Assembly (NCBI GenBank): GCA_004356105.1
Contig: SMYC01000060.1
Span: forward strand, 1,194-65,193
Reading direction: 5' to 3'
DNA from: Acidobacteriota bacterium
Lineage (GTDB): Bacteria > Acidobacteriota > Vicinamibacteria > Marinacidobacterales > SMYC01
Length of the DNA stretch: 64,000 nt
The notes under the pieces are model-generated. The model did not search any database, had not been told where the DNA came from, and was given only the letters and a program-made list of their open reading frames with translations. Positions 9,770-53,503 of this stretch are shown piece after piece. Both the position numbers and the translations under genes were made by a program. Every line of letters begins with the position of its first letter. The first letter of the stretch is position 1.

Positions 9770-10043
9770 TGTGGACTGCGCGCGTAATTTCGGCCCCTTC
9801 GAAGGCAAGACGTGGATCAACTGCTCCCACCAAGGCGCGCTGCCGCCGGTCGCGGTCGAAGCGGTCGAGGAAGCCATCCGCTGGAAGCAAGCCCCGTTCA
9901 ACTTGACCTCGGATCGTTTCACCGAGGTCCCCGCTGTGCTCCGACAAACGTTGGCACGGCTCATCGGAGCGGATCAGAAAGACATCGTGCTCGCGAACAG
10001 CGCCTCCTATGGACTGCACTTGCCAAACGATACGCCGAGATGA
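9770..10043 (+). pseudogene. Fragment of a class-V aminotransferase / cysteine-desulfurase-like gene (N-terminal ~90 aa only).
   Basis: The fragment FGPFEGKTWINCSHQGALPPVAVEAVEEAIRW...IVLANSASYGLHL resembles the N-terminus of the intact class-V aminotransferase at 61828-63033. It ends in a stop, and a short unrelated ORF follows. Confidence 0.4.
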
Positions 10044-12689: not shown

Positions 12690-12722
12690 AACGGCCCGTA
12701 TGGTAGCATCCCCCCGCCGACC

Positions 12723-33202: not shown

Positions 33203-33730
33203 TTAAACGTCTGATTTGAAGCCGATTCTCTGTTTAGATTTTGAAGCGGGCTTCATGAGCTCGCGAATGGCGTCGAAGACCACCCTGAACTGGACGTCAT
33301 ACGCCTTCTCAAGGGCGGCCAGCTTTTGGGCAAGTTCTCCATGGGAAACCAAGAACCCTCTAAGTCGGACGAATGTCCGCATGATCTCGATGTTGACGAG
33401 GACGGCGCGCTTGCTATCGAGCACGGAGGACAACATTGCTACACCTTGCTCCGTAAAGACGTAAGGGGGATAGCGGCGGCCGCCCCACGATCTTGAGGTC
33501 ACAGTTTGTGACCTCAAGAAGATCCACTCCTCACGACCCAACTGGAAAGCAAAGTCGTGGGGGAAGTGATCCAGATTCCGCTTGAAGGCTTGGTTGAGTG
33601 CTTTCGTCGGAACTTCGTAGAGCTCGGCCAAGTCCTCATCCAGCAAAACGTTCTGGCCCCTGATGAAGTAAATACGATTCTCGATCAACTGCGGCGGAAC
33701 GACGAGGGCGGTAGTTTTCTTCTTGGGCAT
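33203..33730 (-). CDS. ORF6N-domain DNA-binding protein (phage anti-repressor-like).
   Basis: The segment [49 protein letters not shown] is a typical ORF6N domain. The start is taken as ATG 33730 (MPKKKTT). Confidence 0.65.
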
Positions 33731-34307
33731 GTAATCCTTGACGGGGTTTGAGGACAACAATTTCCAGTTTCATTTTGGTGGACTGTTTTCTATGGGAGGA
33801 TTTCCTCGACGACTGTTTTAGATCACCTCTTGGTTTTCGCTGACACCGACATAGACCCTCGCCGGTTCTCGTGCCGGTTTGGCAGTCTTCGAGTCATCTC
33901 GTGGGCTTGTTACAAGTGAAGTATCGACAACCCGCGTCGTGCTGTTTGCTACTTGCCAGATCTCGAAAATTTCTTCCGACAAGCACTCTCGTATATAACG
34001 ACGAGAACCGCAGACTCAGTCCTCCCTCAGAGGTGCACAAATTTCGCCATCGGATGGGTTTCGACGACCCACCGAGAACACTCATCGAAGCCAAAATGGC
34101 CGCGTACTGCGTGACGGGCGGAGCCCACGAAGACGTCGCGACCGTCATCCTCGACGAGTACGAAGAACTCGAGCAGATGATGTACCCTGCCGGACCGCAC
34201 GCAACGCGGCCCTCGCTCGTCAAGTTTATCCGTGACGAAAGCGGCGCCGTGACTTGGGTCCGGGAACGGGCGCAACGCGCGGAAGGAGGGGCGCTAGCGA
34301 GCCGTAA

Positions 34308-40158: not shown

Positions 40159-41016
40159 ATGAGTCTTAGGACGGATACCGATTCGACGACGACGGGCAGC
40201 AAGAGCCCAAAGCTCGGGCTCGTGTTGCTCGCTCTCGCTTTCGTTTTGCTGCTCGCCGCGGTGGGCGTTATCGGGTTGCGGGTTCTAGGGCAACTGGATG
40301 CCATCGAATCCCAGATCGTGGATTTGAGTACGCAAGCGGTCGAGGCGACCGATGCGTCGGAGCGCGCGCTCGCGCGTGCCGCGCGCGCGGAAGAGGTCGC
40401 CCGCGCAGCCGCGGAAGGACGCCTGCTTGCCGAAGCGGATACGGCGCGCGCCGAGGAAGACGCGGTGGCTGCTCGTGACGACGCGGCCATGTCGCGAGCT
40501 GATGCCGACACGTCGAGGGAGGAATCCGCCCGCGCCCGCGCGGAGGCCGATCGTATCCGCGCGGAAGCACAAGCGGAGCTCGACCGTCTCGAAAAAGCGC
40601 TCGGCAAAATCGCGGACACACGGCGGACCGCGATCGGCCTCGTGATGAATCTCGACGAGGATAAGCTCAAGTTCGACTTCGACAAAGCGGAGTTGAAGCC
40701 GGAGGACAAAGAGCTATTGAGCCGCATCGCGGGCATCCTCCTCACGTCGCAGGACTACACGATCGCGATCAACGGACATACCGACGACGTCGGCAGCGAC
40801 GAATATAATGAGGGGCTCTCGGAGCGACGCGCCGCCGCCGTTCGCGACTACTTCGTCGAGGCCAGCATCAGCGAGGAAATTCTGAGCGTCCAAGGCTGGG
40901 GCAAGAGGCAGCCTCTCGTTCAAGGCACTTCCGACGCGGCCCGTGCCAAGAACCGGCGGGTCGAGCTCGGGATCGTGAACATCCGCATCAACTACCCGAG
41001 AGCTCCGCGACACTAG
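40159..41016 (+). CDS. Membrane-anchored coiled-coil protein with a C-terminal OmpA/MotB peptidoglycan-binding domain.
   Basis: It has an N-terminal TM, an Ala/Arg/Glu-rich coiled coil, and a C-terminal OmpA_C domain (TIAINGHTDDVGSDEYNEGLSERRAAAVRDY...NRRVEL). Confidence 0.8.
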   Translation: MSLRTDTDSTTTGSKSPKLGLVLLALAFVLLLAAVGVIGLRVLGQLDAIESQIVDLSTQAVEATDASERALARAARAEEVARAAAEGRLLAEADTARAEEDAVAARDDAAMSRADADTSREESARARAEADRIRAEAQAELDRLEKALGKIADTRRTAIGLVMNLDEDKLKFDFDKAELKPEDKELLSRIAGILLTSQDYTIAINGHTDDVGSDEYNEGLSERRAAAVRDYFVEASISEEILSVQGWGKRQPLVQGTSDAARAKNRRVELGIVNIRINYPRAPRH

Positions 41017-41084: not shown

Positions 41085-41770
41085 ATGAGGGGAAGGGACA
41101 GAGGTTGTAACTTCCCCGTCGAAACGGTAAGTTCTCTCGATGTCCCTCGCCTCCGGGACGCGCCTCGCCCGCTACGAGATCCACTCGGGGACGGTCGCAA
41201 TTGGAACGATGCGGAGATCGTGGTGCATTCCCTCGAGACCGGGGAGAGAAAGGTTCTAATCAAAGGAGGCAGAGATGCCCGCTACGTCCCCACAGGGCAG
41301 CTTATCTACGTATTGGATGGGTCGCTTCTAGCGGTGCCGTTTGATGTGGCCAAGCTCGAGGTGACGGGTGGTCCCATACGGATGGCCGAGGGCATCAAGA
41401 CTTCTGAAAGCGACGTTACGGGAGCTGCGCAGTTGAGCATTTCGGACACCGGTGCCTTGGTGTATTTGCCCCTTCGTGTTCCAGGTCTCCGTTCGCTCGT
41501 GTGGGTAGATCGGGACGGAAGAGAGGAGGCCCTCACGACTGAGCCGCGCTCCTATGGGCCTCTGAGTATCTCCCCCGATGGTGGTCGGCGTTGAGACCGA
41601 GCCTAGCTTTGCTCCGGATAACGCCGAGGAACTTTTCGAGGGCTACTGGGTGGGACACCCGGGACGCACCTACGACATCTCCCCCGATCGCGAGCGCTTC
41701 CTGATGATTAAGGAAACCGCGAGCGACAAGTCCCGGCGTTTTGGCGTTTCACGTATCAGTCGAAGGACGT
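41085..41770 (+). pseudogene. Remnant of a TolB-propeller (kinase-associated) gene. The N-terminus is missing and it is frameshifted.
   Basis: ORFs 41085-41594 and 41578-41847 read VLDGSLLAVPFDVAKLEVTGGPIRMAEG...LVWVDRDGREEALT...YDISPDRERFLMIKE, paralogous to the propeller of 17530-19933. No kinase domain lies upstream. Confidence 0.45.
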
Positions 41771-42891
41771 GCTCTCGTCTGCCGTTCGATCGCGCGCACG
41801 AGCTCGTCGCGCTCGAGCGGTTTGTTCACGAGCTCGGAAGCACGTAGGGGTCCGACCGATTCTTCGAAATCCGGATTCCGAATCAAAACGATAGGGATGC
41901 GCGCGACGGCGGGATCGTTTTTGAAGCGCTGAAACCAATCGACTTCGTCTAGCCTCAGCTGCATGTGATCGAGCGTGATGACGTCGGGGCGATTCTTTTG
42001 AGCGCTCTCGTAAGCCTCTTCGAGTGTTGAAGCCGTCACAACTTCGTAGCCTTCGAGTGCGAGGACCCGAGACATGTAGTCCCGCGCGGCTGGCTCATGG
42101 TCTGCGACCAGCACGAGGGGCCCGGGCTCTTTTTGCGCGGGTTCCGCTTCCTCGATAACCGCCTCAACTGGGCGAGGAAACGTCAGCACGGGAGCCGGAG
42201 AGGCGAGCGATACCTCCTCCTCCTCCTCCTCCTCAAAAACTTCCGGAGGCTGACAGACAGCAAGAGACAGGCGCAGCGTGAGCTCACCATTCTCTTCCTC
42301 GAGCTCGAGCTCGCCGCGCATCAACTCGGCCAATCTCCGCACGAGAGCGATCTGAACATCCGTCGAGCTCGCAGCACCGTCCTTCATGCGCGCCTCGAGG
42401 ACCACATGGTCGGTCGAAGCGTGCACTTCGCGGCGTACTTCGAGCCTTGTGTTCCGGGGAGACATCCCCGACACAAGCTGCATGAAGAGCGCGAGCCCTT
42501 GCTCGAGGCAATTCGGATCCCAGAAGCTCTTTCCGAGCTCGCCTCGAATCGACAGACGGAGCGCGCTAGCGAGCCGCGGTCTCTTGGCGATGTTCTCGAG
42601 CATCGCCGTAAGAGCAACGCCCTCGGGCAAGACGGGCTCGGCGGCTCGCTCGTAAGCCGCGAGCGCTATCAGCGGCTCTAAGACGCCTTCGAGCACGTGG
42701 GAGAGCTCTACGAGCTCGGCCGCGCGGTCGTCCTCTTCATGCTTCTTGTCCAAGGCGTGAACCTCGGCCAAGAGCGCCTGGAGAGGCGACTCAATCTGGC
42801 GGCCAACGAGAGCTAGGAGCTCTCCCGCAGTCTTGACCTTCGATGCCAGCTCTTTGGATACGATGATGGAGGTCTCCGCAACGAGATACAC
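41749..42891 (-). CDS. Degenerate histidine-kinase-like domain fused to a C-terminal response-regulator receiver domain.
   Basis: It has an H-box-like segment LSHVLEGVLEPL, a degenerate ATPase region, an acidic linker (EEEEEEE), and a REC domain (LVLVADHE...DVITLDHMQ...IPIVLI). Confidence 0.6.
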   Translation of the reverse strand: MYLVAETSIIVSKELASKVKTAGELLALVGRQIESPLQALLAEVHALDKKHEEDDRAAELVELSHVLEGVLEPLIALAAYERAAEPVLPEGVALTAMLENIAKRPRLASALRLSIRGELGKSFWDPNCLEQGLALFMQLVSGMSPRNTRLEVRREVHASTDHVVLEARMKDGAASSTDVQIALVRRLAELMRGELELEEENGELTLRLSLAVCQPPEVFEEEEEEEVSLASPAPVLTFPRPVEAVIEEAEPAQKEPGPLVLVADHEPAARDYMSRVLALEGYEVVTASTLEEAYESAQKNRPDVITLDHMQLRLDEVDWFQRFKNDPAVARIPIVLIRNPDFEESVGPLRASELVNKPLERDELVRAIERQTRARPSTDT

Positions 42892-42968: not shown

Positions 42969-44624
42969 TTACGCGGGGGTCAACTTGGCCGGGCTCGAGA
43001 TGCGATAGAGGTCCGCCTGGAGCTCGCCAATCTGTTGATAGCGCTCTGCCGGATCTTTCGCCATGCAACGGACGATGATGGCCTCGAGCGCTTCGGGGAT
43101 TGTCGGGTTCACCGAGCGCGGCGTCGGAGCCACTTCATGGACGTGTTTCAAAGCAACGCTAAACGCGGAATCGCCGGAGAACGGGAGCGCTCCAGTGAAC
43201 ATCTCGAAGAACACGACCCCGACCGAATAGATGTCGCTTCGGAAATCGAGGTCGCTCTTTCCTTGGGCTTGCTCGGGCGACATGTAATCCGGTGTCCCCA
43301 TCACGAGCCCCGTCTGGGTCGTGCTGACTTTTTCTTGCTCCCGCACGATGCCGAAGTCCATGAGCTTCACTTCGCTCTGGTAGGTCAGCATGATGTTCTG
43401 CGGTTTGACGTCGCGGTGCACGACTTTGGCCTCATGAGCGGCGGCAAGGCCTGCGCAAGTCTGCTTCGCTATCTGGAGCCCAACGTTCACGGGTAAACAT
43501 CCGCGGCTCCGGATCAGCTGCTTGAGGGTCATGCCTTGCACGAACTCCATGCTGATGAACTGGATGCCGTCCGCTTCCCCGAAATCGAAAGTGCGGACGA
43601 TGTTGCGATGCGCGATGCGCCGGGCGACGCGAATCTCCGTTTTGAACCGCTCGAGGATGCTCGGGTCCATCGACAATGTCTCCGGACGCAGCACTTTGAG
43701 TGCCACCGGCTCGTCCAGATCGCGGTCATGGGCTTGAAAGACCACGCCCATCCCGCCGCTTCCGAGAACGCGTCGAATCTCGTAGCGCTTGGCGAGGATC
43801 GTCCCAGGCTCGAGGGAGCTCAGCGTCATCGCCGGCCGTTGTGGCTCCTCTGGTCCCCCGGCGCCCGCCGCCCACGTCCCCTCTCCATCCGGCGCCGCGG
43901 CGGAGCGCGCCTCGAAGATTTGACTCTGGCGCATCGTTCCGGTGGCGAGGCTGAACACACCCACCGGCTCGTCGACGCCGTGCAGCTTCATGGGAGTGAT
44001 CGCTTCGCCGGAGATCCGATCCTTGACCGTTTCGAAAGCGTCCTGTGACAGCAGCACGTCGCCGGGGAGCGCTTCGGAGGCGAGCCGTCCCGCGATGTGG
44101 ACCACCGGGCCGAGCAGCGAATAGTCGAGACGATCGGCGCTGCCGACGGCTCCGAACACGGCATCGCCCGCGCTCACGCCAATACCAGGAACGAGCACGT
44201 GGTCCGAGCCCGCGTCGTCGAGCTCCATCAAGTGCTGGATCGAAATGGCGCAGCTGATCGCGGGCCACACGCGATCGTCACCTTTGAATACGGCCATCAT
44301 GCGGTCACCGATAAACTTATCGACCAGACCGCCATAGCGTTTGACCAGCTCCGCCTGGCGGCTCAAGGCGTCGTTCACTCGCGACAGCACATCGGCAGGC
44401 TCGCTTACGCCATCGCGAAACGCCGCGTGTGACTTCAAGTCAGAGAACAGGACCGTGACAGGCTGACGCTCCCCCACCCCTATATTGGCGCCCGAACGTT
44501 GGATCATCTCGGCGGCCGAATGGGAAATGAACTTTTCCATCTCCTGTTTTTCTCGAAGCTCGCGCAAGAGGACGCGAAAGGACTTGGCAAGGGCCCCAAT
44601 CTCGTCGGCCGAGTGGATCTCCAC
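42969..44624 (-). CDS. Signalling fusion of a partial HAMP, a class III adenylate/guanylate cyclase domain, and a Ser/Thr protein kinase.
   Basis: The N-terminus starts with the HAMP AS2 helix (DEIGALAKSFRVLL). The cyclase domain reads VTVLFSDLKSH...FIGDRMMAVFK. The kinase has GSGGMGVVFQA, HRDVKPQNIML, DFGIV and SPE. The start is GTG 44624, and an in-frame TAA lies 150 nt upstream. Confidence 0.75.
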   Translation of the reverse strand: MEIHSADEIGALAKSFRVLLRELREKQEMEKFISHSAAEMIQRSGANIGVGERQPVTVLFSDLKSHAAFRDGVSEPADVLSRVNDALSRQAELVKRYGGLVDKFIGDRMMAVFKGDDRVWPAISCAISIQHLMELDDAGSDHVLVPGIGVSAGDAVFGAVGSADRLDYSLLGPVVHIAGRLASEALPGDVLLSQDAFETVKDRISGEAITPMKLHGVDEPVGVFSLATGTMRQSQIFEARSAAAPDGEGTWAAGAGGPEEPQRPAMTLSSLEPGTILAKRYEIRRVLGSGGMGVVFQAHDRDLDEPVALKVLRPETLSMDPSILERFKTEIRVARRIAHRNIVRTFDFGEADGIQFISMEFVQGMTLKQLIRSRGCLPVNVGLQIAKQTCAGLAAAHEAKVVHRDVKPQNIMLTYQSEVKLMDFGIVREQEKVSTTQTGLVMGTPDYMSPEQAQGKSDLDFRSDIYSVGVVFFEMFTGALPFSGDSAFSVALKHVHEVAPTPRSVNPTIPEALEAIIVRCMAKDPAERYQQIGELQADLYRISSPAKLTPA

Positions 44625-44884: not shown

Positions 44885-45424
44885 CTAATCGAAATAGCCG
44901 CGTTTCAACGTGACGCCCAAGGTTTCGTAGGTGTCGTCCGGGAGCCTCGCGATGACGCCGTAGAGACGGATAGCGGGGAGCGTCGGGCGGCGGGAGACGT
45001 CGATCCGAACGACGTAGATCTCGAGCTTTCGATAGCGGTAGACGTAGCGGCCTTCGGCGTCGACTCCCGCGACCTCTAAATCCGCCTTCTTCGCGGCCGT
45101 TCCGGTGATAACGAGGCCGTCTTGCGAAACAACGATGTCCTCCTCACGCGAGACCCGCGCGCTCGTGGTGTGGCTTTCGAACCCGCGTATGCGAAAGGTC
45201 GTCCCCTGGTTCGGTTCGAGGTCCATGCCGTCAGCCGTGAGCCGATTCCGCGCTTCCTCGAAGCCCGCATAGGCGACGAACTCTTCGTCCAAGATGTCGC
45301 GAAAGTCGAGCGAGTGCCGCTGCCACCGAAACGCCATGCGCGCCAAGAGAAGCGTAGGCGGCAGCATCACGAGGATCGCGATGAGCACGACGATGAGAGC
45401 GCTGCCGCGTTCACTTTTTTGCAT
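44885..45424 (-). CDS. Pseudopilin-like minor pilin (GspK / PilX-like N-terminus).
   Basis: MQKSERGSALIVVLIAILVML resembles the GspK-type N-terminal hydrophobic segment. The protein is 179 aa, and its ATG overlaps the upstream gene's TAG. Confidence 0.45.
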   Translation of the reverse strand: MQKSERGSALIVVLIAILVMLPPTLLLARMAFRWQRHSLDFRDILDEEFVAYAGFEEARNRLTADGMDLEPNQGTTFRIRGFESHTTSARVSREEDIVVSQDGLVITGTAAKKADLEVAGVDAEGRYVYRYRKLEIYVVRIDVSRRPTLPAIRLYGVIARLPDDTYETLGVTLKRGYFD

Positions 45425-47374
45425 CTAGAGCCCCGGCACTCGCTCCCGCCAAGCATGGATCCGAACCATGGGGCTCAGTCCCGCGCCGCGCTCGACCACA
45501 CCGGCAGCGACACCCACTGCGTAGCGGCGCGAAGGCCGTGCGAGCTGGAACTTCAGGACAAGGTTTTCCTCCCACGCTCCCATGTACAGCGAGCCGAGTG
45601 AGTCGAAGGACAAGAAGTCGAGATTGTCGATGCGCAGCACACCCATTTTTTGAGCAAGCTCACCGAGCGAGAATGGAATCTCGCTCTGGTCGACGCGGCC
45701 TTCTTCGAGCTTCGTCACCCATTCACGCAGCGAAAAGAGCACCGGCGGATCCTCCCGCGGCACTCCCTCCAAAACGTCCGCCCCGCGAAGCCACGCGCGG
45801 CTCAGCTCCAGGATCACGAAGTCTCCATTGCGTGCGCGCACGAGACAAAGCAAGCTGCCTTCCACAGGATCTCGAGCTAGCGAAACGCCCGCTCCATCGA
45901 GCCTACCCACGAGCTCGGGCTCGACCGGCTCGAGCGTTTCATCGAACGCCATCCGCCAAACGCTCCCGCGCTGACCGTGTTGCAGGAGGAAGTAAAGATG
46001 CCCGTCGCTGCCTTCTACGACCGGACCTGGCGTTCCCGTCAAGCCGAACACCCGCTCGGGCTTTCCGGGTTTTCCCGAGCTGTCGAATCGATAACGATAG
46101 ATCGCCCCTTTTTCCTGGCTCATCACATACAGCGCGCCTTCGACGCCGAAGGCTATCCCTCCGGCCTGGGCGATGACGTCGGTGCCATCGAAAGCAATGA
46201 CCTCGGACTCGCTCGAGAAATTACCGTTCTCGTCGGGCAACATTCGGGTAATGTGGCCGATACGAAGGCCCGCCGCCGCGACGAACAAAGAGCCCGCGAG
46301 CGGCCCTCGCTCAGGCCCGAGAACCGCCGCGACCGGTCCCCGCACGTCTTCAAAAAAAGCAACGCTGTCAACGGTCGCGCTCATGAACTGCTGCTCCATT
46401 TGGAACGTGTAGACATAGCTCGGGTCTCGGCGCGGATTCGTGCCCGCGCCCACGACAACGCCCCGGTCCGCAGCGGGACGAGACACAACGGCTATGGGAT
46501 GTTCGAGCGGGTACAGGATGCGCGACAGCCGGAACCCGATATCGGGACGTTCAAAATCCACCGTGCCCGACGCGGGTCTCAAAGAAACGGCGGTCACAAT
46601 CGAGAGCGGCTCGAGCGCGCCCGCCTTAACTGAATATTGGAGCTTCAACCTTATCGTCTCGAGATGGGAATATTCATCTTCGACTTTGGCCGCAGAAATG
46701 ACCTTCCCGTTCGCATCGAGATAGACGAAGGTCAGCGCAATGATGTCGCGCGCGAGCACCCGGCTCGTCACACCCGTAACATCCTTGACGAGCTCCTTCC
46801 CTTCACCCTCCCCGGACGCACGCAAGTAGTAGCGAACTTCGCGCAGCCCCAGCGCACGGGTGGCTGCGTTCTGGGTGAAACGGTTGCGGAAGTCGCCACT
46901 CGTCGTCTCGAGCGAGCGAAGTTTCATCCAAAGAGGTGACCGCTTGACGACCTCCGCGACTTCGTTGCTACGTCGCGCATCGGTCAGCAGCACCGTCTCG
47001 CCCGGCTCGAAAGCGTCCGCGCCCGTGAAAGCGAGCTCCGTGTCCGTCTCGATGAGCCCCGACGTGAGATAGCCCGCTGTGAGGTTCGGGTTCGAGCGCA
47101 AGGTCAAGGCGAACGAGCTCACCTCGCCACCCGGGACACGCGGCATCACCGCGACAACGCCTTCACCTAGTCCTTGCCCGGCGAGCGTGAGCTCATATCC
47201 GATGTCGTCGAGCGCACGTGTGATGCTTGACGAAGCGGCGGCGAGATCGCTTTGCGCGCGAAAGATGCGCGCGACATCTCGGAGCGTTCTCGCGACGAGC
47301 GCCATCACGACGAGCGTGATCCCGAGCGCTATGAGCACCTCGAGCAGTGTGTAGCCGCGCTCGTCCCTCGTCAA
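45425..47374 (-). CDS. Large (649 aa) protein with a type IV pilin / prepilin-type N-terminal methylation domain and a C-terminal beta-rich domain.
   Basis: The N-terminus MTRDERGYTLLEVLIALGITLVVMALV carries the G(F/Y)TLxE prepilin cleavage/methylation motif. The C-terminal 450 aa are rich in G/V/S/T strands. Confidence 0.6.
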   Translation of the reverse strand: MTRDERGYTLLEVLIALGITLVVMALVARTLRDVARIFRAQSDLAAASSSITRALDDIGYELTLAGQGLGEGVVAVMPRVPGGEVSSFALTLRSNPNLTAGYLTSGLIETDTELAFTGADAFEPGETVLLTDARRSNEVAEVVKRSPLWMKLRSLETTSGDFRNRFTQNAATRALGLREVRYYLRASGEGEGKELVKDVTGVTSRVLARDIIALTFVYLDANGKVISAAKVEDEYSHLETIRLKLQYSVKAGALEPLSIVTAVSLRPASGTVDFERPDIGFRLSRILYPLEHPIAVVSRPAADRGVVVGAGTNPRRDPSYVYTFQMEQQFMSATVDSVAFFEDVRGPVAAVLGPERGPLAGSLFVAAAGLRIGHITRMLPDENGNFSSESEVIAFDGTDVIAQAGGIAFGVEGALYVMSQEKGAIYRYRFDSSGKPGKPERVFGLTGTPGPVVEGSDGHLYFLLQHGQRGSVWRMAFDETLEPVEPELVGRLDGAGVSLARDPVEGSLLCLVRARNGDFVILELSRAWLRGADVLEGVPREDPPVLFSLREWVTKLEEGRVDQSEIPFSLGELAQKMGVLRIDNLDFLSFDSLGSLYMGAWEENLVLKFQLARPSRRYAVGVAAGVVERGAGLSPMVRIHAWRERVPGL

Positions 47375-47455
47375 TTTGGGCTCCTTCGTCGAAACTGTAT
47401 GAGCTAGGTATTAATGATGGCACACTCTTTTGAATCGGTCAGCGGCGCACGGACG

Positions 47456-48091
47456 TCAGGGACGAAAGGAACCGTTGTCGAGAAAGTGCAGGCATAGATC
47501 GAACGTCTCGGCAGCGTACATGATGAACGTGTGGGTGCGGTCGACTTCGACCCAATCGCGCATGCCGTCGAGCTTCGTGTTCTCGACGCGCACGACCCCG
47601 TCATTGGCGTCGCGGAACCCGATGCGATGACCACAATTACCCGCGATCACGCCGAACTCGACATCAGGGACTGGAAGCGTTCGAAAGAACGCGTCATCGC
47701 CGAGTTTTTGTCCGCTGTCCCCGGTGAGCCACTGATAGACACGCAGGTGGCGCATCATGCTCGCTAGAGCAGCCGGGCCATTCGGCGGCGCGAGCATGAC
47801 GATGCGCTTCAACCCCGCGCGGTACCCCTCCTGGAAGCCGTTGCGAACAATGATATTTCCGAGCGAATGGCCGATGAGGTGATATTGAGGTGCTCGGACT
47901 TGGTTCTCGACGAGCTCCCGAAGTCGCACCGTGAGCTGGTCGAGGGTGGATTTGCGCGGGCTATAGCCGAACCAATGCACTTCGTAGCCGGCGTTGCGCA
48001 AGCGCAGCCCGAGAACGGCCATGGACATCCAGGTACGGCCCATTCCGTGCAACAGGATGACGGCCTGCTCCCGGGCCGGTGGCCGCGTCAT
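47456..48091 (-). CDS. Alpha/beta-hydrolase (serine esterase/lipase-like, GHSLG nucleophile elbow).
   Basis: It reads [18 protein letters not shown]...[12 protein letters not shown]. Its ATG overlaps the Macro gene's TGA (ATGA). Confidence 0.7.
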
Positions 48092-48696
48092 GGATCCAAG
48101 GCGAGCTCGACGGCCGCGATCCGTTCGTAGACGGCAAGGTCGTTCGAGAAAAAACAGCAGAATATGACACGCTCCGGGGCCTCGTGACCGAGAAGCCACT
48201 CGCGGACCGTCGACTGTGCCACGACCGCCGCCGGCTCGATGGGATATCCGTAGATACCGGTCGAGATGCAGGGAAAGGCGACCGTGCGGAGCCCACGGCG
48301 TTCGACGAGCTCGCAAGCGTTTCGATAGCAGCTAGCGAGAAGCTCGGGCTCCCCTGCGGCTCCGCCTTGCCACACGGGGCCCACCGCGTGGATCACGTGA
48401 TTCGCCGGCAGCCGATAGCCGCGCGTCATCTTCGCCTCGCCGGTCTGAGCGCCTCCCAATCCCCGACACTCCATAAGGAGCTCGGGGCCGGCGGCCCCGT
48501 GGATGGCGCCGTCAACGCCTCCGCCACCGAGAAGACTCGACTTCGCGGCGTTCACGACGGCATCGACCGCAAGCTCCGTGATGTCCCCTTGCACGATTTC
48601 GACACGTCCTTCCAGGTACACTCGAGGCGACCTCCGGAAATCGATCATAGCGCGACCCCGCTCATTTGCTATCCTAATTAATAGTCCAGAAACCAA
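48088..48696 (-). CDS. Macro-domain protein (O-acetyl-ADP-ribose deacetylase, YmdB/MacroD-like).
   Basis: It has the Macro-domain motifs [20 protein letters not shown] and HAVGPVW. Confidence 0.8.
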
Positions 48697-48770
48697 TTCG
48701 AAAGATGCCCGTTCGGCGAGGGTCTTCCCGCGTCCGTGGGCCTCACAGCGGATCCATCGAGCGATTTTCT

Positions 48771-51700
48771 ATGGCAGAGCGTTACGCCCTCGTCATCGAC
48801 GACGACACCACGTTTCGTGATCGGGTCTCCGGACTCCTCGCGCCGCACAAGATCGTTGTAACGGGCGCCTCGGACAAAGACGAGGTCCTGTCCCTTCTCG
48901 AAGACCGGCGCCCCGTTCTCGTGATCCTCGCGGTAGAGCTTCCCGACAAAGATGGCTTCGCTCTTTTTCGTAAAGTGAAGAAGGCGGACTTCGACGTTCC
49001 CGTCATTATTACAACTGCGACGGTAGCGAAGGCCGAGCTCAGCCGACACGAGACACAGCCATCCCACGCAGAGTACTACCTCCAAAAAGACGAGATCTCC
49101 GACTCGGACCTTCTAAACGCGATCGCGAAGGCCGGCCGTCTCGACCTCACTTCGCCAGACACGACCGCGCGAGCCGAGCCTTCGGCCTCCGAGGAGGATG
49201 TCGCCGAATCCGCGGAGAGCATCGGCGACGACCTCGACCCCCGTTTGGCGAGATATCTGGATGACGAGACCACCACCATTTTCGCCCAGATCGACGAGCG
49301 CGCGCTCGAGGAGCACAGCCAGCGCAACCCGGCGACGCAGCAAGGCGAGGTCTCCGCAGAGCGTGTCGCCGAGCTCGAGAGCGAAGTGGATCGGCTCACG
49401 GACGAGCTCGATCAATCCCGCAGCGCCGCGCGCAGCTCGCCGTTCTCGAAAGACTTCCTGAAACTCCGCGACGTCGCGAGCCAGAAAGACAAAGAGATCC
49501 ACGTTCTAACGGACTCGCTCGCCGACCGCGAATCCCAGGTGCGCGTCGTCAGGCGCAAGCTGTCCGAGCTCGTAAAGCGCTTCGTCGGACCGGAATCGTG
49601 GGACGGCGAAGATCAGGACGAGCTGCGAGCCCTCACCGAAGAGCTCGACCATTCGCGGGCGAAGTTTCGAGATCTAACCGAGCACGTCGAAGCCACCGAG
49701 CTCCGGCACAAGCAAGAGATTGACGAAATAGCCAAACGACTCGTCAAGACGCAGCGAGCGCGTGACCAAGAACGCGACGAGGCGGCCGAGCTCCGACGCG
49801 GTCTCGAAGGCGCCGAATCCACGCTCGGAGAGGTACGGCAGCAATCCGACCAAGAGAACGACGACCAGCAACGTGAGCGCAAAGACCTCACGAAGCGGCT
49901 CGTCCTCACCCAGCGCGAGCGCAACCAAGGTCGCGAAGAAGCCACAGAGCTCAAAGGACTCCTCGAGAGTCTCGAGGTCAAGCACGCTGAGCTCACCGAG
50001 CAAACGGACGCGACAAAAGCTCGGCACGAGCGCGAGAGCGCGGAGCTCACTGAACGGCTCGAGGCCGGCCAGAAAGCTCGGGACGAGGCGCGCCAGGAGA
50101 CGGCTGAAGTTCGCGGGCTTCTCGACGGTGTCCGCGCGAAGCTCGAAAAACTCACCGGAGAGGCCGAGGCGACCCGTGCCAAACACGAGCAGGAGGCCGA
50201 GGAGCTGACGAACCGACTCGTCGTGACCCAACGCGATCGAGACGAACGACGCGAAGAAGTCACCGAGCTTCGGAGCCTGGTGACGGTATTCCAGGCCAAG
50301 ATCGAACAGCAGACGGAAAAAGCCGAGGAGTCACGAAGCAAACACGAGCAAGACGCCGCCGTGCTCGAGGAGCGAGTCGTCACGGGCAAGAGGGAGCGTG
50401 ACAAGATCCGAGAGGAAGCCGCGGACCTCGCTGAACGCCTCTCCGAAGCCAAGGCCAAGCTCACCAAGACGGTTGCAGAGGCCAACAAAGCGCAAGGCCG
50501 CTACGAACAGCAGAACGAAGCTCTCGAGCAGAAAGTCTCCGCGGAGACGGCCAGCGCGGCCCAAGCGCATGTCGAGCTCGAGACCGGACTCTCAGAGCTG
50601 CGGCTTCAGCACGCGCACGAGCTTCAGGAGCACAACGCGAACCAAAAGGCGGAAATCAAGAAGCGCGAGAAGACTCTCGCGGAGGAAAAAGCCGCGGCGA
50701 TGAACGAGCTCAAAAAGAAGCTCGATACGAGGCTTCGACAGTCGGAGACCAGCCACACGCGCTCGCTCGCGGCTTTGGGCGAGGAGCACGTCAAAGAGTT
50801 GGCCTCCGTCCATTCGGGCCATGGTGAAGCGAGGCGGCGCGCCGCCACGGAAGTCCAAGAAGCTCTCGAGGAAGCATCCAAGAAGAACGCCGCCGCCCTC
50901 AAGCAGTCGGACGAACAGCGCGCCGCCCAGCTCCTGCAAGCGGAAAACAAGCGCGTCGCGGAAGTCACGTCTCTCGAACAACGCTATGAGGAACGGCTTG
51001 CGTCGCTCACTCAAAGCCATGCCGCCGAGACCAGCGCCCTCGACCAGAAGGCCAAAGCCGCGATTCGGTCGAACGAGCAGATGCTCGAAGAGGTCACAGC
51101 TAAAGTCCAGGATGTGTTGAAGAGCTGGGAGACGGAGCGCACAGCGCATTACCAGACGCGCGAGCGCTACGAGAAGGAGACGACGGAGCTCCAGAAAAGC
51201 CATACGAAGAATCTCGCGACGGCGGAGCAGGACCAATTCGCGGCGCTCGCGGGCATGTCGCGCAAGTTCAAGGAAGACCGCACGGCCGCGCTCGAGGTGG
51301 AACGGCGGCGGTGGCAGGAGATAGCAGCCGACCTACAAACAAAACATGCGGAGGCTCTCGGCTCTCTCAAGACCCAGCATGAGGACGAGCTCGAGCAACG
51401 CGACAAGGTGCACGACAAGACCATCGAGCAAAAGAGGCGCGAAGCGATGCAAGTACAAAAAGCGGCGCTCGAGCGCAAGGCCGCTTCACATCACAAAGCG
51501 TTAGAAAAGATGGGGCGCGAGCACGCCGACGAAATCGTTTCCTGGCGTCAAAAGAGCGAACAAAGCGTCGCAGGGCTCCGACAGAGCCACATGAAAGTCC
51601 TCGCCGACCGCGATCGCGACGCGGAGCACACGCTTCGCACCACGGTCGAGCAGCTCAAGAAAGACCACGGCCGTCATCAAGAAAAATTGCGCGACGCGCA

Positions 51701-52679
51701 GGCGCAAATGGTCAACGCGCTGCGCGGCGAGTATGGGAAAGAGCTCCAAACCATGGAGCAAGCTCAACGCAGCGCGCTCGCGCTCCAGGAGCAAGCCGCC
51801 CACACAGCGCTCAGCGCAGTCGAGGAAGAACGAGATGAATCCCGGGTGATGATCGACGGCCTACGGGCCGAAATCGCCGAGATGGCCGCGAAACACCGCT
51901 CGAGCACTCGGGTCGCCGAAGAGGCACACAATGCCGAGGCCAAGGAGCTCAAAAAGGAGCTCGAGTCCAGCCGAGCACGGCTCGAAGTGGAACGACAGGC
52001 GCTCCAGGCCTCGATGGCGAAGCTCGAGCGTGAATCGTCCGGCGAGCTCAAACAAGCCAACGAATCGCTGCAGCACGAAAAGAAGCTTCACGTGGCGACG
52101 CGCGAGAGATATGAGCGACGCGTGAACGAGCTCAAGACCCGCCACAGCTTGGGGATCGACCGCGTCGAAAGTGACTGGATCGACAAGCTCGAACACTTGG
52201 AGACGAGCTTGAGAGCGAAAGCCGAGAAGGCCGTCGTCACCGCGGAGCAGGACTGGAAGGGTAAGCTCGAATCACTGCGGAGGGAATACGAAGAAGTGGT
52301 CGAGAGCTCGCGGAAGGAGTTCGAGCTCGAGCTCGCCGCCGCGATCCGGGCATCGGAGGGTGCTCGCTCCATCGAGGAATCCTACGAAGCGGCTTCGCGC
52401 GAGCTCAGCACTTTGAACGCAAAACTCGAGAAACTAGAGACCGAGCTCTCCGTAGCAAGGCACGAAATCGTCGAGCGCGACACAACCATCCAATCCAACT
52501 CCCGCAAGGCCGCCGAGCACCAGCAGACGGTCGATTCCCTGAAAGCCGTCATCAACGACTTCTCACGATCCGTCGACGGCTACGTCGAGGACGGCGACGA
52601 AAAGACGCATGAAAAGATCAATTCCCTGAAAGCCGTCATCGACGACATGTATCGCAGCATCGACGGCCCAAAAAACTAG
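48771..52679 (+). CDS. Response-regulator receiver domain fused to a coiled-coil region of about 1150 aa (AglZ/FrzS-like architecture).
   Basis: The REC domain reads MAERYALVIDDD...VLVILAVELPDKDGF. It is followed by E/R/K/A/Q-rich heptad sequence with about 53-aa tandem repeats (…TQRARDQERDEAAELRRGLEGA…, …TQRERNQGREEATELKGLLES…, …TQRDRDERREEVTELRSLV…). The C-terminus has a duplicated motif SLKAVINDFSRSVDG / SLKAVIDDMYRSIDG. The start could alternatively be ATG 48705. Confidence 0.75.
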   Translation: MAERYALVIDDDTTFRDRVSGLLAPHKIVVTGASDKDEVLSLLEDRRPVLVILAVELPDKDGFALFRKVKKADFDVPVIITTATVAKAELSRHETQPSHAEYYLQKDEISDSDLLNAIAKAGRLDLTSPDTTARAEPSASEEDVAESAESIGDDLDPRLARYLDDETTTIFAQIDERALEEHSQRNPATQQGEVSAERVAELESEVDRLTDELDQSRSAARSSPFSKDFLKLRDVASQKDKEIHVLTDSLADRESQVRVVRRKLSELVKRFVGPESWDGEDQDELRALTEELDHSRAKFRDLTEHVEATELRHKQEIDEIAKRLVKTQRARDQERDEAAELRRGLEGAESTLGEVRQQSDQENDDQQRERKDLTKRLVLTQRERNQGREEATELKGLLESLEVKHAELTEQTDATKARHERESAELTERLEAGQKARDEARQETAEVRGLLDGVRAKLEKLTGEAEATRAKHEQEAEELTNRLVVTQRDRDERREEVTELRSLVTVFQAKIEQQTEKAEESRSKHEQDAAVLEERVVTGKRERDKIREEAADLAERLSEAKAKLTKTVAEANKAQGRYEQQNEALEQKVSAETASAAQAHVELETGLSELRLQHAHELQEHNANQKAEIKKREKTLAEEKAAAMNELKKKLDTRLRQSETSHTRSLAALGEEHVKELASVHSGHGEARRRAATEVQEALEEASKKNAAALKQSDEQRAAQLLQAENKRVAEVTSLEQRYEERLASLTQSHAAETSALDQKAKAAIRSNEQMLEEVTAKVQDVLKSWETERTAHYQTRERYEKETTELQKSHTKNLATAEQDQFAALAGMSRKFKEDRTAALEVERRRWQEIAADLQTKHAEALGSLKTQHEDELEQRDKVHDKTIEQKRREAMQVQKAALERKAASHHKALEKMGREHADEIVSWRQKSEQSVAGLRQSHMKVLADRDRDAEHTLRTTVEQLKKDHGRHQEKLRDAQAQMVNALRGEYGKELQTMEQAQRSALALQEQAAHTALSAVEEERDESRVMIDGLRAEIAEMAAKHRSSTRVAEEAHNAEAKELKKELESSRARLEVERQALQASMAKLERESSGELKQANESLQHEKKLHVATRERYERRVNELKTRHSLGIDRVESDWIDKLEHLETSLRAKAEKAVVTAEQDWKGKLESLRREYEEVVESSRKEFELELAAAIRASEGARSIEESYEAASRELSTLNAKLEKLETELSVARHEIVERDTTIQSNSRKAAEHQQTVDSLKAVINDFSRSVDGYVEDGDEKTHEKINSLKAVIDDMYRSIDGPKN
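49650..50550 (+). repeat. Diverged about 159-nt tandem coding repeats inside the coiled-coil gene.
   Basis: The recurring protein unit is ...ELT(N/E)RLV(V/L)TQR(D/E)R(D/N)..REE.TEL(R/K).L... The DNA repeats are diverged, not identical. Confidence 0.45.
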
Positions 52680-52711
52680 GCGACACACCCCTCGTCGGGG
52701 AGTTAGGGAGG

Positions 52712-53503
52712 TTAGGGTTGGGCGGGGGCCTTTTGGGGTTCGTCGGGGTCATCCTTTAGGGTAGGGGCGAGGGCGACGCGATTTTTTCCACCTTGTTTTG
52801 CTTCGTAGAGGGCTTGATCTGCGGCGGAGTAAAGCCGGTCGGGTCGAAGCTCGGTCACCGAACGCGTATCGGCTAGGCCGATGGACAGCGTTAGGGGGGG
52901 GAGGGCCGTGGCGATCCAGCTCGCCTCGATGGCCAGCGCCTTGCGGATGCGGTCGGCGAGCGTGCGCGCTTCTAGCTCCGTGATGTTGGGCGCGAGGACG
53001 ACGAACTCGTCGCCACCGATACGAGCGGCTAGGTCCGTCGCACGGCACGTGCGTTGAAGCGTACGCGCTACAGCTCGGATCGCGTTGTCGCCGGCCTCGT
53101 GGCCGGAGACGTCGTTGACCGCCTTGAGTCCGTCGAGGTCGAGCAGCATCAAGGTCAGCGGTTTGTTGTACCGGTCGACGCGCGCGAGCTCTTCGAGCAG
53201 TCGGCGGTCCGAGTGGCGACGGTTCGGGAGCCCGGTCAAGGGGTCGGTCAGTGAAACGCGGCGGAGTAGGTCCTCGTGCGAACCGAGGATGGCCCCGAGG
53301 CCGACGAACATCAGGGCCGTCGCGCCGGCAATGTAGCCATAGGTCAAGGCACGGCTCGAGAACTCCTCCACGGCCCAGTCCCAATTGCCGAGCTCTCCGT
53401 GGACGAGCGCCCGCATCACGAAAAGCCCCCCCGGTGCGCCGACCGCCAGAAAAAGACCCAAAACAGGGTACAGACGACCCCTCGGGGTGGTTGCAAAACG
53501 CAT
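52712..53503 (-). CDS. Membrane-bound GGDEF-domain diguanylate cyclase.
   Basis: It has 2 N-terminal transmembrane segments and a GGDEF domain with an intact IGGDEF active site and RxxD-like region. Confidence 0.8.
   Translation of the reverse strand: MRFATTPRGRLYPVLGLFLAVGAPGGLFVMRALVHGELGNWDWAVEEFSSRALTYGYIAGATALMFVGLGAILGSHEDLLRRVSLTDPLTGLPNRRHSDRRLLEELARVDRYNKPLTLMLLDLDGLKAVNDVSGHEAGDNAIRAVARTLQRTCRATDLAARIGGDEFVVLAPNITELEARTLADRIRKALAIEASWIATALPPLTLSIGLADTRSVTELRPDRLYSAADQALYEAKQGGKNRVALAPTLKDDPDEPQKAPAQP

What the first reader, a model, noticed from the sequence alone, without database searches (positions are those of the whole stretch)
48771..53503. 1300-aa receiver plus giant coiled-coil protein (AglZ/FrzS-like) convergent with a membrane GGDEF cyclase
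An N-terminal REC domain (possibly a pseudo-receiver) is followed by about 1150 aa of uninterrupted heptad-rich sequence built from diverged ~53-aa repeats and ending in a duplicated SLKAVI(N/D)D...S(V/I)DG motif. This architecture matches the myxobacterial gliding and S-motility scaffolds AglZ and FrzS and is rare outside that group. A c-di-GMP synthase is encoded tail-to-tail 30 bp away.
Basis: partly seen in the sequence, partly recalled or inferred. Interest (0 to 1): 0.6.

Follow-up and report, generated by a model that had tools for sequence, protein, structure and literature searches.

The report
Acidobacterial FrzS-like pseudo-receiver rod protein
This is a 1302-residue protein from a marine acidobacterium (order Candidatus Marinacidobacterales) with a receiver domain that cannot be phosphorylated and a rod about 155 nm long; it is a distant relative of the Myxococcus polarity scaffold FrzS and belongs to a large, unstudied family found outside the myxobacteria.

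Summary
The gene is real: window 48771-52679 (+), 1302 aa. It is intact and under purifying selection (dN/dS 0.34 overall, 0.10 at the C-terminus). Residues 1-121 form a receiver fold in which Ala54 replaces the phospho-acceptor Asp.

The rod has no proline for about 1075 residues, but it is not uniformly heptad. The 53-residue repeats cover only aa 267-637 (period 3.53). Residues 638-1250 have a period of about 3.64, rich in 11-residue repeats as in Scy.

The duplicated C-terminal motif is real and is the most constrained part of the protein.

The FrzS/AglZ reading holds as homology:
- A profile of the family's receiver domains finds FrzS first among all solved receiver structures.
- The invariant residues H93 and A100, and near-invariant H99, match the FrzS residues needed to bind SgmX.
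- A second segment at the rod start aligns with a FrzS orthologue identified by gene order.

It is not an orthologue of FrzS or AglZ. The architecture is also not rare: 238 clusters reach E<=1e-10.

No motility partner lies in the 64 kb window. The GGDEF neighbour is an intact cyclase, but nothing shows a functional link.

The likely role is a self-assembling docking scaffold. Any link to motility is inferred only.

The parts
48771..52679 (+). Whole gene: 1302-aa pseudo-receiver plus coiled-coil rod protein (the stop codon TAG is 52677-52679)
   Evidence: ORF and translation. A near-identical protein of the same length (listed as 100% identity after rounding) and an 83%-identical full-length orthologue are in public data. 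dN/dS is 0.34 against the 83% orthologue.
48771..49133 (+). Asp-less receiver (pseudo-receiver) domain, aa 1-121
   Evidence: Pfam Response_reg E 5e-14. AF2 gives a (beta-alpha)5 fold with pLDDT about 80. Foldseek matches receiver structures with TM-score about 0.8 normalised to the target. The family profile hits FrzS RD best in the PDB.
48930..48932 (+). Ala54 codon at the phospho-acceptor position (CheY Asp57, FrzS Ala53); Glu56 follows two residues later, like FrzS Asp55
   Evidence: Alignments to YycF and FrzS. The position is A, S, G or T in nearly all family members. FrzS data come from PMC1974792.
49047..49088 (+). alpha4/loop/beta5 signature H93-x5-H99-A100-x2-Y103-x2-K106, the probable docking surface
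   Evidence: H93 and A100 are invariant; H99, Y103 and K106 are conserved in at least 90% of family members. They align with FrzS H92, H98-A99, Y102 and K105. H92A and AHA(97-99)GGG abolish SgmX binding (PMC9811614). H92F and Y102A abolish S-motility (PMC1974792).
49134..49355 (+). Acidic linker, aa 122-195, with the short conserved motif DLDPRLARYLDDETTTIFAQIDE (aa 154-176)
   Evidence: AF2 pLDDT is below 50 for aa 128-155. dN/dS is 0.97. The motif recurs in relatives. FrzS has an acidic linker with DPELDxLDAAFD.
49356..49568 (+). Rod-start segment, aa 196-266, with the family hallmark ARSSPFSKDFLKLRD...KDKEI (S223, P224 and F225 invariant)
   Evidence: Alignment A4. The motif was found across family members. 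The FrzS-type sub-family has the related FSREREFLNLRE..KKEKE. A collinear HSP to P0129 gives E 4e-8. AF2 shows a helix break at aa 220-226.
49569..50681 (+). Rod segment 1, aa 267-637: five clear and two degenerate 53-residue repeats, period 3.53 (heptads plus one stutter per repeat)
   Evidence: Autocorrelation z is 14.6 at lag 53. The repeat register is listed. The 53/15 period has power 11.0, reached by 0 of 500 shuffles. Copy number differs in orthologues.
50682..52526 (+). Rod segment 2, aa 638-1252: non-heptad rod rich in 11-residue repeats, period about 3.64
   Evidence: The 51/14 period has power 11.4, reached by 0 of 500 shuffles, and the 3.50 period is at background. Similarity lags are 11, 22, 29, 36 and 40. 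It contains the block invariant across the five aligned family sequences, AKVQDVLKSWE. dN/dS is 0.27.
52527..52667 (+). C-terminal tandem motif: TVDSLKAVINDFSRSVDG (aa 1253-1270), an acidic hinge, then KINSLKAVIDDMYRSIDG (aa 1282-1299)
   Evidence: Read directly from the sequence. It is conserved once or twice at the C-terminus of many family members. dN/dS is 0.10, the lowest in the gene. AF2 shows the rod helix ending near aa 1274, a break at GDEK, and a terminal helix.
52712..53503 (-). Convergent neighbour: a membrane-anchored diguanylate cyclase (GGDEF A-site, RxxD I-site). This is context only and is not shown to belong to the system.
   Evidence: Pfam GGDEF E 7e-42. Motif positions are given. 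It is syntenic within the order, but 0.1-4 kb of other genes are inserted in relatives.
44885..47374 (-). Two prepilin-type (pseudopilin-like) genes, 649 aa and 179 aa, 1.4 kb upstream on the opposite strand. This is conserved context and only a weak lead.
   Evidence: Pfam N_methyl and TIGR02532 hits; N-terminus RG|YTLLEVLIALG. They are kept next to the rod gene in relatives whose rod protein is only 42% identical.

Best explanation
The gene encodes a non-phosphorylatable, FrzS-superfamily scaffold protein.

Shown:
- The N-terminal receiver fold has Ala at the phospho-acceptor site.
- Its most conserved surface residues (H93, H99-A100, Y103) correspond to the FrzS residues that dock the TPR protein SgmX and are required for S-motility.
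- The receiver is followed by an acidic, unconstrained linker, a conserved rod-start motif (SSPFSxxFLxLR) and about 1050 residues of proline-free helix.
- The helix has two regimes: 53-residue repeats with period 3.53, then a stretch with period about 3.64.
- The protein ends in a strongly constrained tandem helical motif.

Inferred:
- The protein forms a parallel coiled-coil rod about 155 nm long. The nearly straight second part is compared with Scy and FilP, which are dimeric.
- The rod self-assembles or localises to a defined cell site, as the FrzS coiled coil does on its own.
- The C-terminal motifs act as an anchoring or end-to-end association module.
- The pseudo-receiver serves as a constitutive docking site that brings a partner to that site, most plausibly a TPR-type regulator of a polar envelope machine such as type IV pili.

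The scaffold and docking parts are well supported. The identity of the partner and any role in motility are inference only.
For: Pseudo-receiver.

FrzS RD is the top PDB hit for the family profile, 77 bits against 61 for the best canonical receiver.

Conserved H93, H99-A100 and Y103 match the FrzS functional residues reported in PMC1974792 and PMC9811614.

There is a second collinear homologous segment with P0129, which shares the AlaDh, sigma, anti-sigma gene order of M. xanthus frzS.

The rod-start motif is shared by the sub-families.

Rod properties.

Purifying selection is strongest on the C-terminal motif, and the linker is neutral.

From the literature:
- The FrzS coiled coil alone is sufficient for polar localisation, and the CheY domain is a docking domain (PMC9811614).
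- MglA and RomR homologues are reported in Acidobacteria (PMC4316618; PMC4546325).

Weak contextual leads:
- Pseudopilin-like genes are conserved nearby.
- A PATAN+TPR gene lies directly upstream of a 46%-identical (N-terminal region) relative.
Against: - No MglA, Frz, Glt/Agl, SgmX-like or core pilus gene is in the 64 kb window.
- No partner recurs next to family members in five other loci.
- The rest of the genome could not be searched.
- FrzS Gly88, which is needed for SgmX binding, is Thr in the target. The target also keeps the two N-terminal acidic residues and the Thr87 equivalent that FrzS lacks.
- At fold level the receiver is generic; FrzS is only rank 10 by Foldseek.
- Pairwise identity to FrzS RD is only 26%.
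- The gene is disrupted by transposases in two related genomes. In two others it carries in-frame deletions that remove the linker and rod-start motif. It is therefore dispensable or plastic in some lineages.
- Oligomeric state, localisation and partners are untested.
Confidence: 0.55

Rival explanations
1. It is an intermediate-filament-like cytoskeletal protein, functionally like Scy, FilP or crescentin. It would build filaments or a meshwork for cell shape or polar growth, and the pseudo-receiver would be a regulatory appendage rather than a docking site for a motility regulator.
For: Two thirds of the rod has the period of about 3.64 and the high Ala content (12.4%) described for the hendecad rods of Scy and FilP (PMC9858780). 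The FrzS coiled coil makes large periodic structures when expressed in E. coli. The cited title of Yang et al. 2004 describes AglZ as a filament-forming protein. No motility genes are nearby.
Against: There is no DivIVA-like or IF-like head domain; Pfam and NCBIfam find only the receiver. The residues conserved best in the receiver are the FrzS partner-binding ones. This reading overlaps with the main explanation rather than excluding it.
Confidence: 0.25
2. It works together with the convergent GGDEF cyclase as a c-di-GMP module. Either the rod protein positions the cyclase, or it is itself a c-di-GMP effector.
For: An intact cyclase with A-site and I-site lies 32 bp away, tail to tail. The GGDEF-thr gene block stays on the same side of the rod gene in all Marinacidobacterales loci and in a relative about 41% identical over the N-terminal region. 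Another relative has GGDEF-PilZ and GGDEF genes within 7 kb.
Against: Convergent genes are not co-transcribed. A dipeptidase gene, transposases or 3.7-4 kb of other genes separate the two in relatives. No PilZ, degenerate GGDEF/EAL or other known c-di-GMP-binding domain was detected. GGDEF genes are probably common in genomes of this size (general knowledge, not tested), so chance proximity is likely. More distant family loci lack it.
Confidence: 0.1
3. It is a decaying or dispensable gene whose rod is merely tolerated repetitive sequence.
For: Two related genomes carry transposase insertions, two have in-frame deletions of otherwise conserved motifs, and several database copies are truncated. 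Overall dN/dS is 0.34, above the neighbours' 0.14-0.27.
Against: The ORF here is an intact 3.9 kb and so is the 83% orthologue. dN/dS is well below 1 except in the linker, and is 0.10 at the C-terminal motif. Family-wide motifs are conserved across hundreds of clusters.
Confidence: 0.07
4. It is an SMC-like or chromosome-segregation protein, as one source named a C-terminal fragment.
For: JGI names fragment P0008 a 'chromosome segregation ATPase'. There is a weak NCBIfam SMC hit of 24.6 bits against a cut-off of 567, over coiled-coil sequence only.
Against: There is no ATPase head, hinge or Walker motif. The hit lies far below the cut-off and only in the rod.
Confidence: 0.02

Closest known systems
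FrzS (Myxococcus xanthus, MXAN_4149), the polar beacon for the type IV pilus activator SgmX
   Same: Both have an N-terminal receiver fold with Ala at the phospho-acceptor position and an acidic residue two positions later. The target has equivalents of FrzS H92, H98-A99, Y102 and K105. Both have an acidic linker and then a long coiled coil. The FSREREFLNLRE rod-start motif seen in the FrzS-type sub-family (full-length FrzS itself was not recovered) is related to the target's SSPFSKDFLKLRD. FrzS is the best PDB match for the family profile.
   Different: Receiver identity is only 26%. The target keeps the CheY D12/D13 and T87 equivalents and has Thr where FrzS has Gly88. Its rod is about four times longer (about 1050 residues against 235) and mostly non-heptad. 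It has a different C-terminal motif (TIxSLKAVIxDF, against YQEQVL...KKAMAIALTLLD in the FrzS-type sub-family). There is no frz/AlaDh/ECF-sigma neighbourhood, and the phylum is different.
AglZ (M. xanthus, MXAN_2991), the gliding-motility scaffold
   Same: Same domain order and nearly the same size: a pseudo-receiver plus a coiled coil of about 1076 residues (PMC4546325).
   Different: AglZ arose by duplication of a frzS-like gene within the Cystobacterineae, so the long rod here is an independent expansion. No Agl-Glt genes are in the window. The AglZ sequence itself was not available for comparison.
Scy and FilP (Streptomyces), polarisome and IF-like proteins with hendecad rods
   Same: Very long rods (Scy has more than 1000 residues) with non-heptad periodicity rich in 11-residue repeats and Ala-rich composition, which predicts nearly unsupercoiled dimers (PMC9858780).
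   Different: No sequence homology was detected. Scy and FilP have a DivIVA-like N-terminus rather than a receiver. The resemblance is in rod geometry only.
Aspartate-less / pseudo-receiver domains in general (ALR, PsR)
   Same: It is detected computationally as a receiver but lacks the phosphorylatable Asp, with Ala at that position as described for FrzS. Acidobacteria are reported to be rich in such domains (PMC4395418; PMC12632262).
   Different: Most characterised examples are transcription factors. This one is fused to a giant rod and has no DNA-binding domain.

Membership tests
FrzS/AglZ superfamily (Asp-less receiver plus coiled-coil scaffold) | The receiver fold lacks the phosphorylatable Asp (Ala in FrzS) | tested here: met
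   Ala54 aligns with YycF Asp and FrzS Ala53. The receiver fold is predicted.
FrzS/AglZ superfamily (Asp-less receiver plus coiled-coil scaffold) | Equivalents of FrzS His92 and Tyr102, which are required for function and also present in AglZ | tested here: met
   H93 and Y103 align with FrzS H92 and Y102. H93 is invariant and Y103 is at least 90% conserved in the family (PMC1974792).
FrzS/AglZ superfamily (Asp-less receiver plus coiled-coil scaffold) | The receiver domain is closer in sequence to FrzS than to canonical receivers | tested here: met
   In the family-profile search of the PDB, the six FrzS-containing entries rank first (68-77 bits) and the best canonical receiver scores 61 bits. 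With the single sequence, FrzS is not the top hit. At fold level there is no discrimination.
FrzS/AglZ superfamily (Asp-less receiver plus coiled-coil scaffold) | An extended C-terminal coiled-coil domain after a linker | tested here: met
   About 1050 proline-free helical residues with significant hydrophobic periodicity.
FrzS/AglZ superfamily (Asp-less receiver plus coiled-coil scaffold) | Homology that extends beyond the receiver domain | tested here: met
   A collinear second HSP (aa 174-290 against P0129 aa 362-471, E 4e-8) covers the rod-start motif. P0129 shares the frzS gene order.
FrzS/AglZ superfamily (Asp-less receiver plus coiled-coil scaffold) | Polar localisation through the coiled coil, and interaction with MglA or SgmX | not testable with these tools
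   This needs microscopy or binding assays, or at least a search of the whole genome for mglA and sgmX, which was not available.
FrzS orthologue in the strict sense | The frz-linked neighbourhood (AlaDh, ECF sigma, anti-sigma, frzS) | tested here: not met
   The target's neighbours are an abhydrolase and pseudopilin-like genes upstream, and GGDEF plus thrA-asd-thrB-thrC downstream, unlike L013 and L009.
FrzS orthologue in the strict sense | FrzS-specific receiver substitutions (Ser at CheY D13; Gly88, needed for SgmX binding) | tested here: not met
   The target has D10-D11-D12 and T81-T82 at these positions (PMC9811614).
FrzS orthologue in the strict sense | A heptad rod ending in the FrzS-type C-terminal motif | tested here: not met
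   FrzS-type sub-family members have period 3.47-3.53 and end in ...KKAMAIALTLLD. The target has period 3.53 then 3.64 and ends in SLKAVIxDF motifs.
AglZ orthologue | Descent from the Cystobacterineae-specific duplication, and association with the Agl-Glt machinery | tested here: not met
   The organism is an acidobacterium. AglZ arose within the Cystobacterineae (PMC4546325). No Agl or Glt genes are in the window. The genome-wide check was not possible.
Canonical two-component response regulator | The full set of conserved CheY residues: D12, D13, D57, T87 and K109 | tested here: not met
   D57 is replaced by Ala54. The other four equivalents are present.
SMC / chromosome-segregation ATPases | N- and C-terminal ATPase head halves and a hinge | tested here: not met
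   Only a sub-threshold coiled-coil match (24.6 bits against a cut-off of 567); no SMC_N or hinge domain.

The most novel reading that the evidence does not exclude
This protein represents the acidobacterial counterpart of the FrzS polar beacon. If so, a pseudo-receiver/rod scaffold that targets a TPR-type activator to a polar machine, together with the MglA and RomR homologues already reported in Acidobacteria, would predate or extend beyond the Myxococcota. This lineage would have replaced the heptad rod with a nearly straight, hendecad-rich rod about 155 nm long, and would have evolved its own C-terminal tandem motif (TIxSLKAVIxDF) as a new anchoring or assembly module.
Probability: 0.25. 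Interest if true: 0.6.

Novelty: new variant of a known kind. Interest (0 to 1): 0.4.

Why it matters
FrzS and AglZ have been treated as myxobacterial inventions. The published tree has 26 sequences, and the acquisition of FrzS was described as a key step towards regulated S-motility.

This locus shows that the same building plan is widespread in uncultured bacteria, including large-genome marine Acidobacteriota. The plan consists of an Asp-less receiver with the FrzS partner-binding residues, an acidic linker, a conserved rod-start motif and a giant rod.

If the function is conserved, three things follow:
- Acidobacteria, whose cell biology is almost unknown, would gain a candidate polarity or landmark scaffold.
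- The finding would offer natural variants (hendecad rod, variable repeat number, tandem C-terminal motif) for asking how rod geometry and end motifs set localisation.
- It would define testable family signatures (H-x5-HA-x2-Y, SSPFSxxFLxLR, TIxSLKxVIxDF) for annotation. These proteins are currently labelled 'CheY-like', 'OmpR family', 'RpfG-family c-di-GMP phosphodiesterase', 'chromosome segregation ATPase' or 'hypothetical'.

If the function is not conserved, this is simply another long coiled-coil protein with a dead receiver.

Tried and rejected
- The full-length word-indexed search returned only five relatives because rod sequence saturated the candidate list. The C-terminal query found only two fragments. 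Both understate the size of the family, and the exhaustive search with aa 1-300 corrected this.
- The last word-indexed search, using a profile that included FrzS, returned only short proteins. Full-length FrzS and AglZ were therefore not obtained.
- The M. xanthus contig carrying frzS ends inside the gene. Direct comparison of FrzS and AglZ rods and C-termini was not possible, so a FrzS orthologue identified by gene order (P0129) was used instead.
- Cluster look-ups for taxonomy named only one organism.
- Foldseek against the PDB does not separate FrzS from other receivers.
- Tandem Repeats Finder sees no 159-bp DNA repeat.
- The promoter and terminator scan was uninformative. It found no sigma-70-like sites, and the terminator-like hits were mostly inside the gene on the opposite strand.
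- A PATAN domain was looked for in the nearby 380-aa C-terminal-receiver protein and not found.
- Pfam and NCBIfam found nothing in the rod except a sub-threshold SMC coiled-coil match, so the SMC reading was rejected.
- The upstream ATG at 48705 was rejected as the start because all homologues begin at MAERYAL/MSDRY.
- A literature search for the order name found nothing.
The related genomes could therefore not be searched for mglA, romR, sgmX or pil genes.

Full report
**What is there.** The window has about 61% G+C. An ORF runs from 48705 to 52679 (+). All homologues start at the second ATG (MAERYAL...), so the gene is 48771-52679 and encodes 1302 aa. Pfam finds one domain, Response_reg, at aa 7-118 with E 5e-14. 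NCBIfam adds only sub-threshold receiver matches and one far-sub-threshold SMC coiled-coil match. The convergent gene at 52712-53503 (-) is a 263-aa GGDEF protein (E 7e-42). It has an intact GGDEF site, an RxxD I-site with PleD-like spacing and two N-terminal hydrophobic segments. The gap between the two stop codons is 32 bp.

**Organism.** Four related loci were found among the species-representative genomes. All are from Candidatus Marinacidobacterales (Acidobacteriota, Vicinamibacteria), and the three complete chromosomes among them are 8-10 Mb. This is not a myxobacterium.

**Receiver domain.** In the alignment with YycF, the phospho-acceptor Asp aligns with Ala54 (LVILAVELPDKDG). I recalled the FrzS receiver sequence from memory and confirmed that it is identical to PDB 2gkg_A over 122 residues. 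The alignment to FrzS puts target Ala54 on FrzS Ala53 and Glu56 on Asp55. It also puts H93 on H92, H99-A100 on H98-A99, Y103 on Y102 and K106 on K105.
- In FrzS, Ala53 replaces CheY Asp57, and H92F or Y102A abolish S-motility (PMC1974792).
- H92A, G88A and AHA(97-99)GGG abolish binding of the TPR protein SgmX (PMC9811614).
- Unlike FrzS, the target keeps the CheY D12/D13 equivalents (D10, D11) and the T87 equivalent (T82), and it has Thr where FrzS has Gly88.
- AF2 predicts a standard (beta-alpha)5 fold for aa 1-121.
- Foldseek finds generic receivers, with FrzS at rank 10, so the fold alone does not discriminate.

**Size of the family.** The word-indexed search with the full protein found only five relatives. 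An exhaustive HMMER search of 1.84 billion cluster representatives with aa 1-300 found 8745 hits at E<=1e-3 and 238 at E<=1e-10.
- About 100 of the roughly 160 sequences in hand share a non-Asp residue at the acceptor site (hhhAV(D/E)LP(D/E)KxGF) and the signature HxKLKxHA(D/E)xY(L/I)DK. Among those of at least 400 aa, most are 450-1300 aa long, with the receiver at the N-terminus.
- A 24-sequence profile of these receiver domains was searched against all PDB chains. It ranks the six FrzS-containing entries first (68-77 bits, best E 1e-20), ahead of YycF at 61 bits.
- H93 and A100 are invariant, and H99, Y103 and K106 are at least 90% conserved.
- The family's best-conserved receiver residues are therefore the ones that FrzS uses to bind its partner.

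**Homology beyond the receiver.** After an acidic linker the family shares a rod-start motif, ARSSPFSx(E/D)(F/Y)LxLRE...K(D/E)KEI. S223, P224 and F225 are invariant in alignment A4.
- A sub-family whose receivers are closest to FrzS (30-39% identity) carries the variant FSREREFLNLRE..NKKEKE.
- One of its members, P0129, sits in the gene order ArgJ, AlaDh, ECF sigma, zf-HC2 anti-sigma, rod gene.
- The M. xanthus frzS locus reads frzA, frzZ, radical SAM, AlaDh, ECF sigma, anti-sigma, frzS. I therefore take P0129 to be a FrzS orthologue by position.
- The target aligns to P0129 in two collinear pieces: REC at 38% identity (E 3e-20), and aa 174-290 against aa 362-471 at 31% identity (E 4e-8).
- This supports common descent with the FrzS lineage and not just a similar layout.

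**The rod.** There is no proline from aa 225 to 1299. The 53-residue repeats are real and in exact register at aa 320, 373, 426, 479 and 532, with degenerate copies at 267 and 585 (z 14.6 at lag 53). They occupy only aa 267-637.
- In that stretch the hydrophobic period is 53/15 = 3.53 (power 11.0, reached by 0 of 500 shuffles).
- From aa 638 to 1250 the period is about 3.61-3.65. The 51/14 period has power 11.4 (0 of 500 shuffles) and 3.50 is at background. Similarity lags are 11, 22, 29, 36 and 40.
- This is the hendecad-rich regime described for Scy and FilP, which predicts almost no supercoiling (PMC9858780).
- Across the family, target-like members mostly have periods of 3.62-3.68 and FrzS-like members 3.47-3.53.
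- The repeats are invisible to Tandem Repeats Finder at the DNA level, so they are old.
- With about 1048 helical residues at roughly 0.1485 nm each, the rod would be about 155 nm long (inference).

**C-terminus.** TVDSLKAVINDFSRSVDG and KINSLKAVIDDMYRSIDG are separated by an acidic hinge.
- The motif occurs once or twice at the C-terminus of many target-like family members. Examples are P0016, P0017 and P0033 (two copies) and P0024, P0028, P0073, P0077 and P0088 (one copy). It is also present in the 42%-identical L004 copy.
- It is absent from the FrzS-like sub-family, which ends in ...KKAMAIALTLLD.
- AF2 continues the rod helix through the first motif, breaks at GDEK and predicts a terminal helix with lower confidence.
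- Its hydrophobic residues follow an a/d pattern and are flanked by acidic residues. This argues for helix-helix packing rather than membrane binding (read from the sequence; inference).

**Selection.** These values compare the target with the intact 83% orthologue in L012:

| Region | dN/dS |
|---|---|
| Whole gene | 0.34 |
| Receiver domain | 0.30 |
| Linker | 0.97 |
| 53-residue repeats | 0.43 |
| Rod segment 2 | 0.27 |
| C-terminal motifs | 0.10 |

Neighbouring genes give 0.14-0.27. The gene is therefore functional here, and its C-terminal end is the most constrained part.

**Context.** Within the order the gene order is Ser/Thr kinase-cyclase, a 179-aa and a 649-aa prepilin-type protein, an abhydrolase, the rod gene, GGDEF, then thrA-asd-thrB-thrC.
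- The two pseudopilin-like genes (G|YTLLEV N-terminus) stay next to the rod gene even where the rod protein is only 42% identical.
- The distance between the rod gene and GGDEF varies from 32 bp to 4 kb. Inserted genes include a dipeptidase and others.
- Loci of more distant family members have no recurrent neighbour.
- One lead stands out: a PATAN(DUF4388)+TPR gene lies directly upstream of P0012, a relative 46% identical over the N-terminal region.
- The rest of the 64 kb window encodes metabolic, transport and signalling genes. No MglA, Frz, Glt/Agl or core pilus gene is present.

**Interpretation.** The evidence supports a FrzS-superfamily scaffold made of three parts:
- a receiver that cannot be phosphorylated and acts as a docking module through its alpha4/loop surface;
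- a long self-associating rod;
- a lineage-specific C-terminal module for anchoring or assembly.

By analogy, the FrzS coiled coil alone localises to the poles, and its CheY domain merely tethers SgmX (PMC9811614). MglA and RomR homologues are reported in Acidobacteria. A polar landmark role, possibly for type IV pili, is therefore the most likely function, but it is an inference.

The protein is not a FrzS or AglZ orthologue. AglZ arose inside the Cystobacterineae, and the FrzS-specific Gly88, gene order, heptad rod and C-terminus are all missing. The rivals considered are an IF-like cytoskeletal role, which overlaps with the main reading, a c-di-GMP module with the neighbouring cyclase, gene decay, and an SMC-like protein, which I reject.

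**Verdict.** The FrzS/AglZ interpretation is right as homology and architecture. It is wrong about rarity and unproven about motility. This is a distinct sub-family of a known kind and is of moderate interest.

Noticed in passing
L004 12725-14340 (ISL3 transposase ORF at 12685-13965, minus strand); L003 8851-9474 and junctions near 9960 and 11390: The orthologous rod gene is split by an ISL3-family transposase in one related genome. In another it is truncated or replaced at the N-terminus by an ISAZ013-type transposase. A junction peptide, VVYHFN, recurs at two different positions (after aa 792 in L003 and after aa 78 in P0022), which suggests repeated insertion of one element.
   Followed up: partly
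L001 9200-13147 and L002 9983-13216: Two orthologues (1198 and 1072 aa) have in-frame deletions. These remove the acidic linker, the otherwise invariant SSPFS rod-start motif and several 53-residue repeats. Either these features are dispensable in those lineages or the assemblies collapsed repeats.
   Followed up: partly
L004 6703-9330 and L005 5436-8027 (compare window 45425-48316): In the more distant relatives the abhydrolase and the prepilin-type 649-aa protein lie in one 863-875-aa ORF. The N-terminal methylation motif would then be internal. This is either a fusion or an ORF-calling artefact.
   Followed up: no
window 44885-47374 (-): The 649-aa protein has a classic prepilin cleavage/methylation N-terminus (G|YTLLEV). 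Its large C-terminal region looks beta-propeller-like on reading, with no Pfam match. A 179-aa minor-pilin-like protein follows. No other pilus or type II secretion genes are nearby.
   Followed up: partly
window 11-1873 (+): A prokaryotic RING-finger family 1 protein (244 aa) lies directly upstream of a ThiF/E1-like protein (360 aa). The pair could be a bacterial ubiquitin-like conjugation module.
   Followed up: no
window 42969-44624 (-); L012 1338-3989: A Ser/Thr protein kinase is fused to an adenylate/guanylate cyclase domain. In the 83% relative the gene is 883 aa and carries additional dCache_3 and HAMP domains. The window ORF as listed (551 aa) may therefore be N-terminally truncated or mis-started.
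   Followed up: no
window 41749-42891 (-): This 380-aa protein has a C-terminal receiver domain that retains the Asp. Its 250-residue N-terminal region has no Pfam match and is followed by an acidic stretch. It sits next to an OmpA-family gene (40159-41016).
   Followed up: partly
L011 399-2438 (+): A PATAN (DUF4388) plus TPR protein is encoded immediately upstream, on the same strand, of a relative (P0012) that is 46% identical to the target over the N-terminal ~300 residues. GGDEF-PilZ and GGDEF genes lie within 7 kb. It is a candidate partner for the pseudo-receiver.
   Followed up: partly
window 33203-33760 (-): An ORF6N-domain protein (a KilA-N/antirepressor-like domain typical of mobile elements) sits between an aquaporin gene and a prenyltransferase-like gene.
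   Followed up: no
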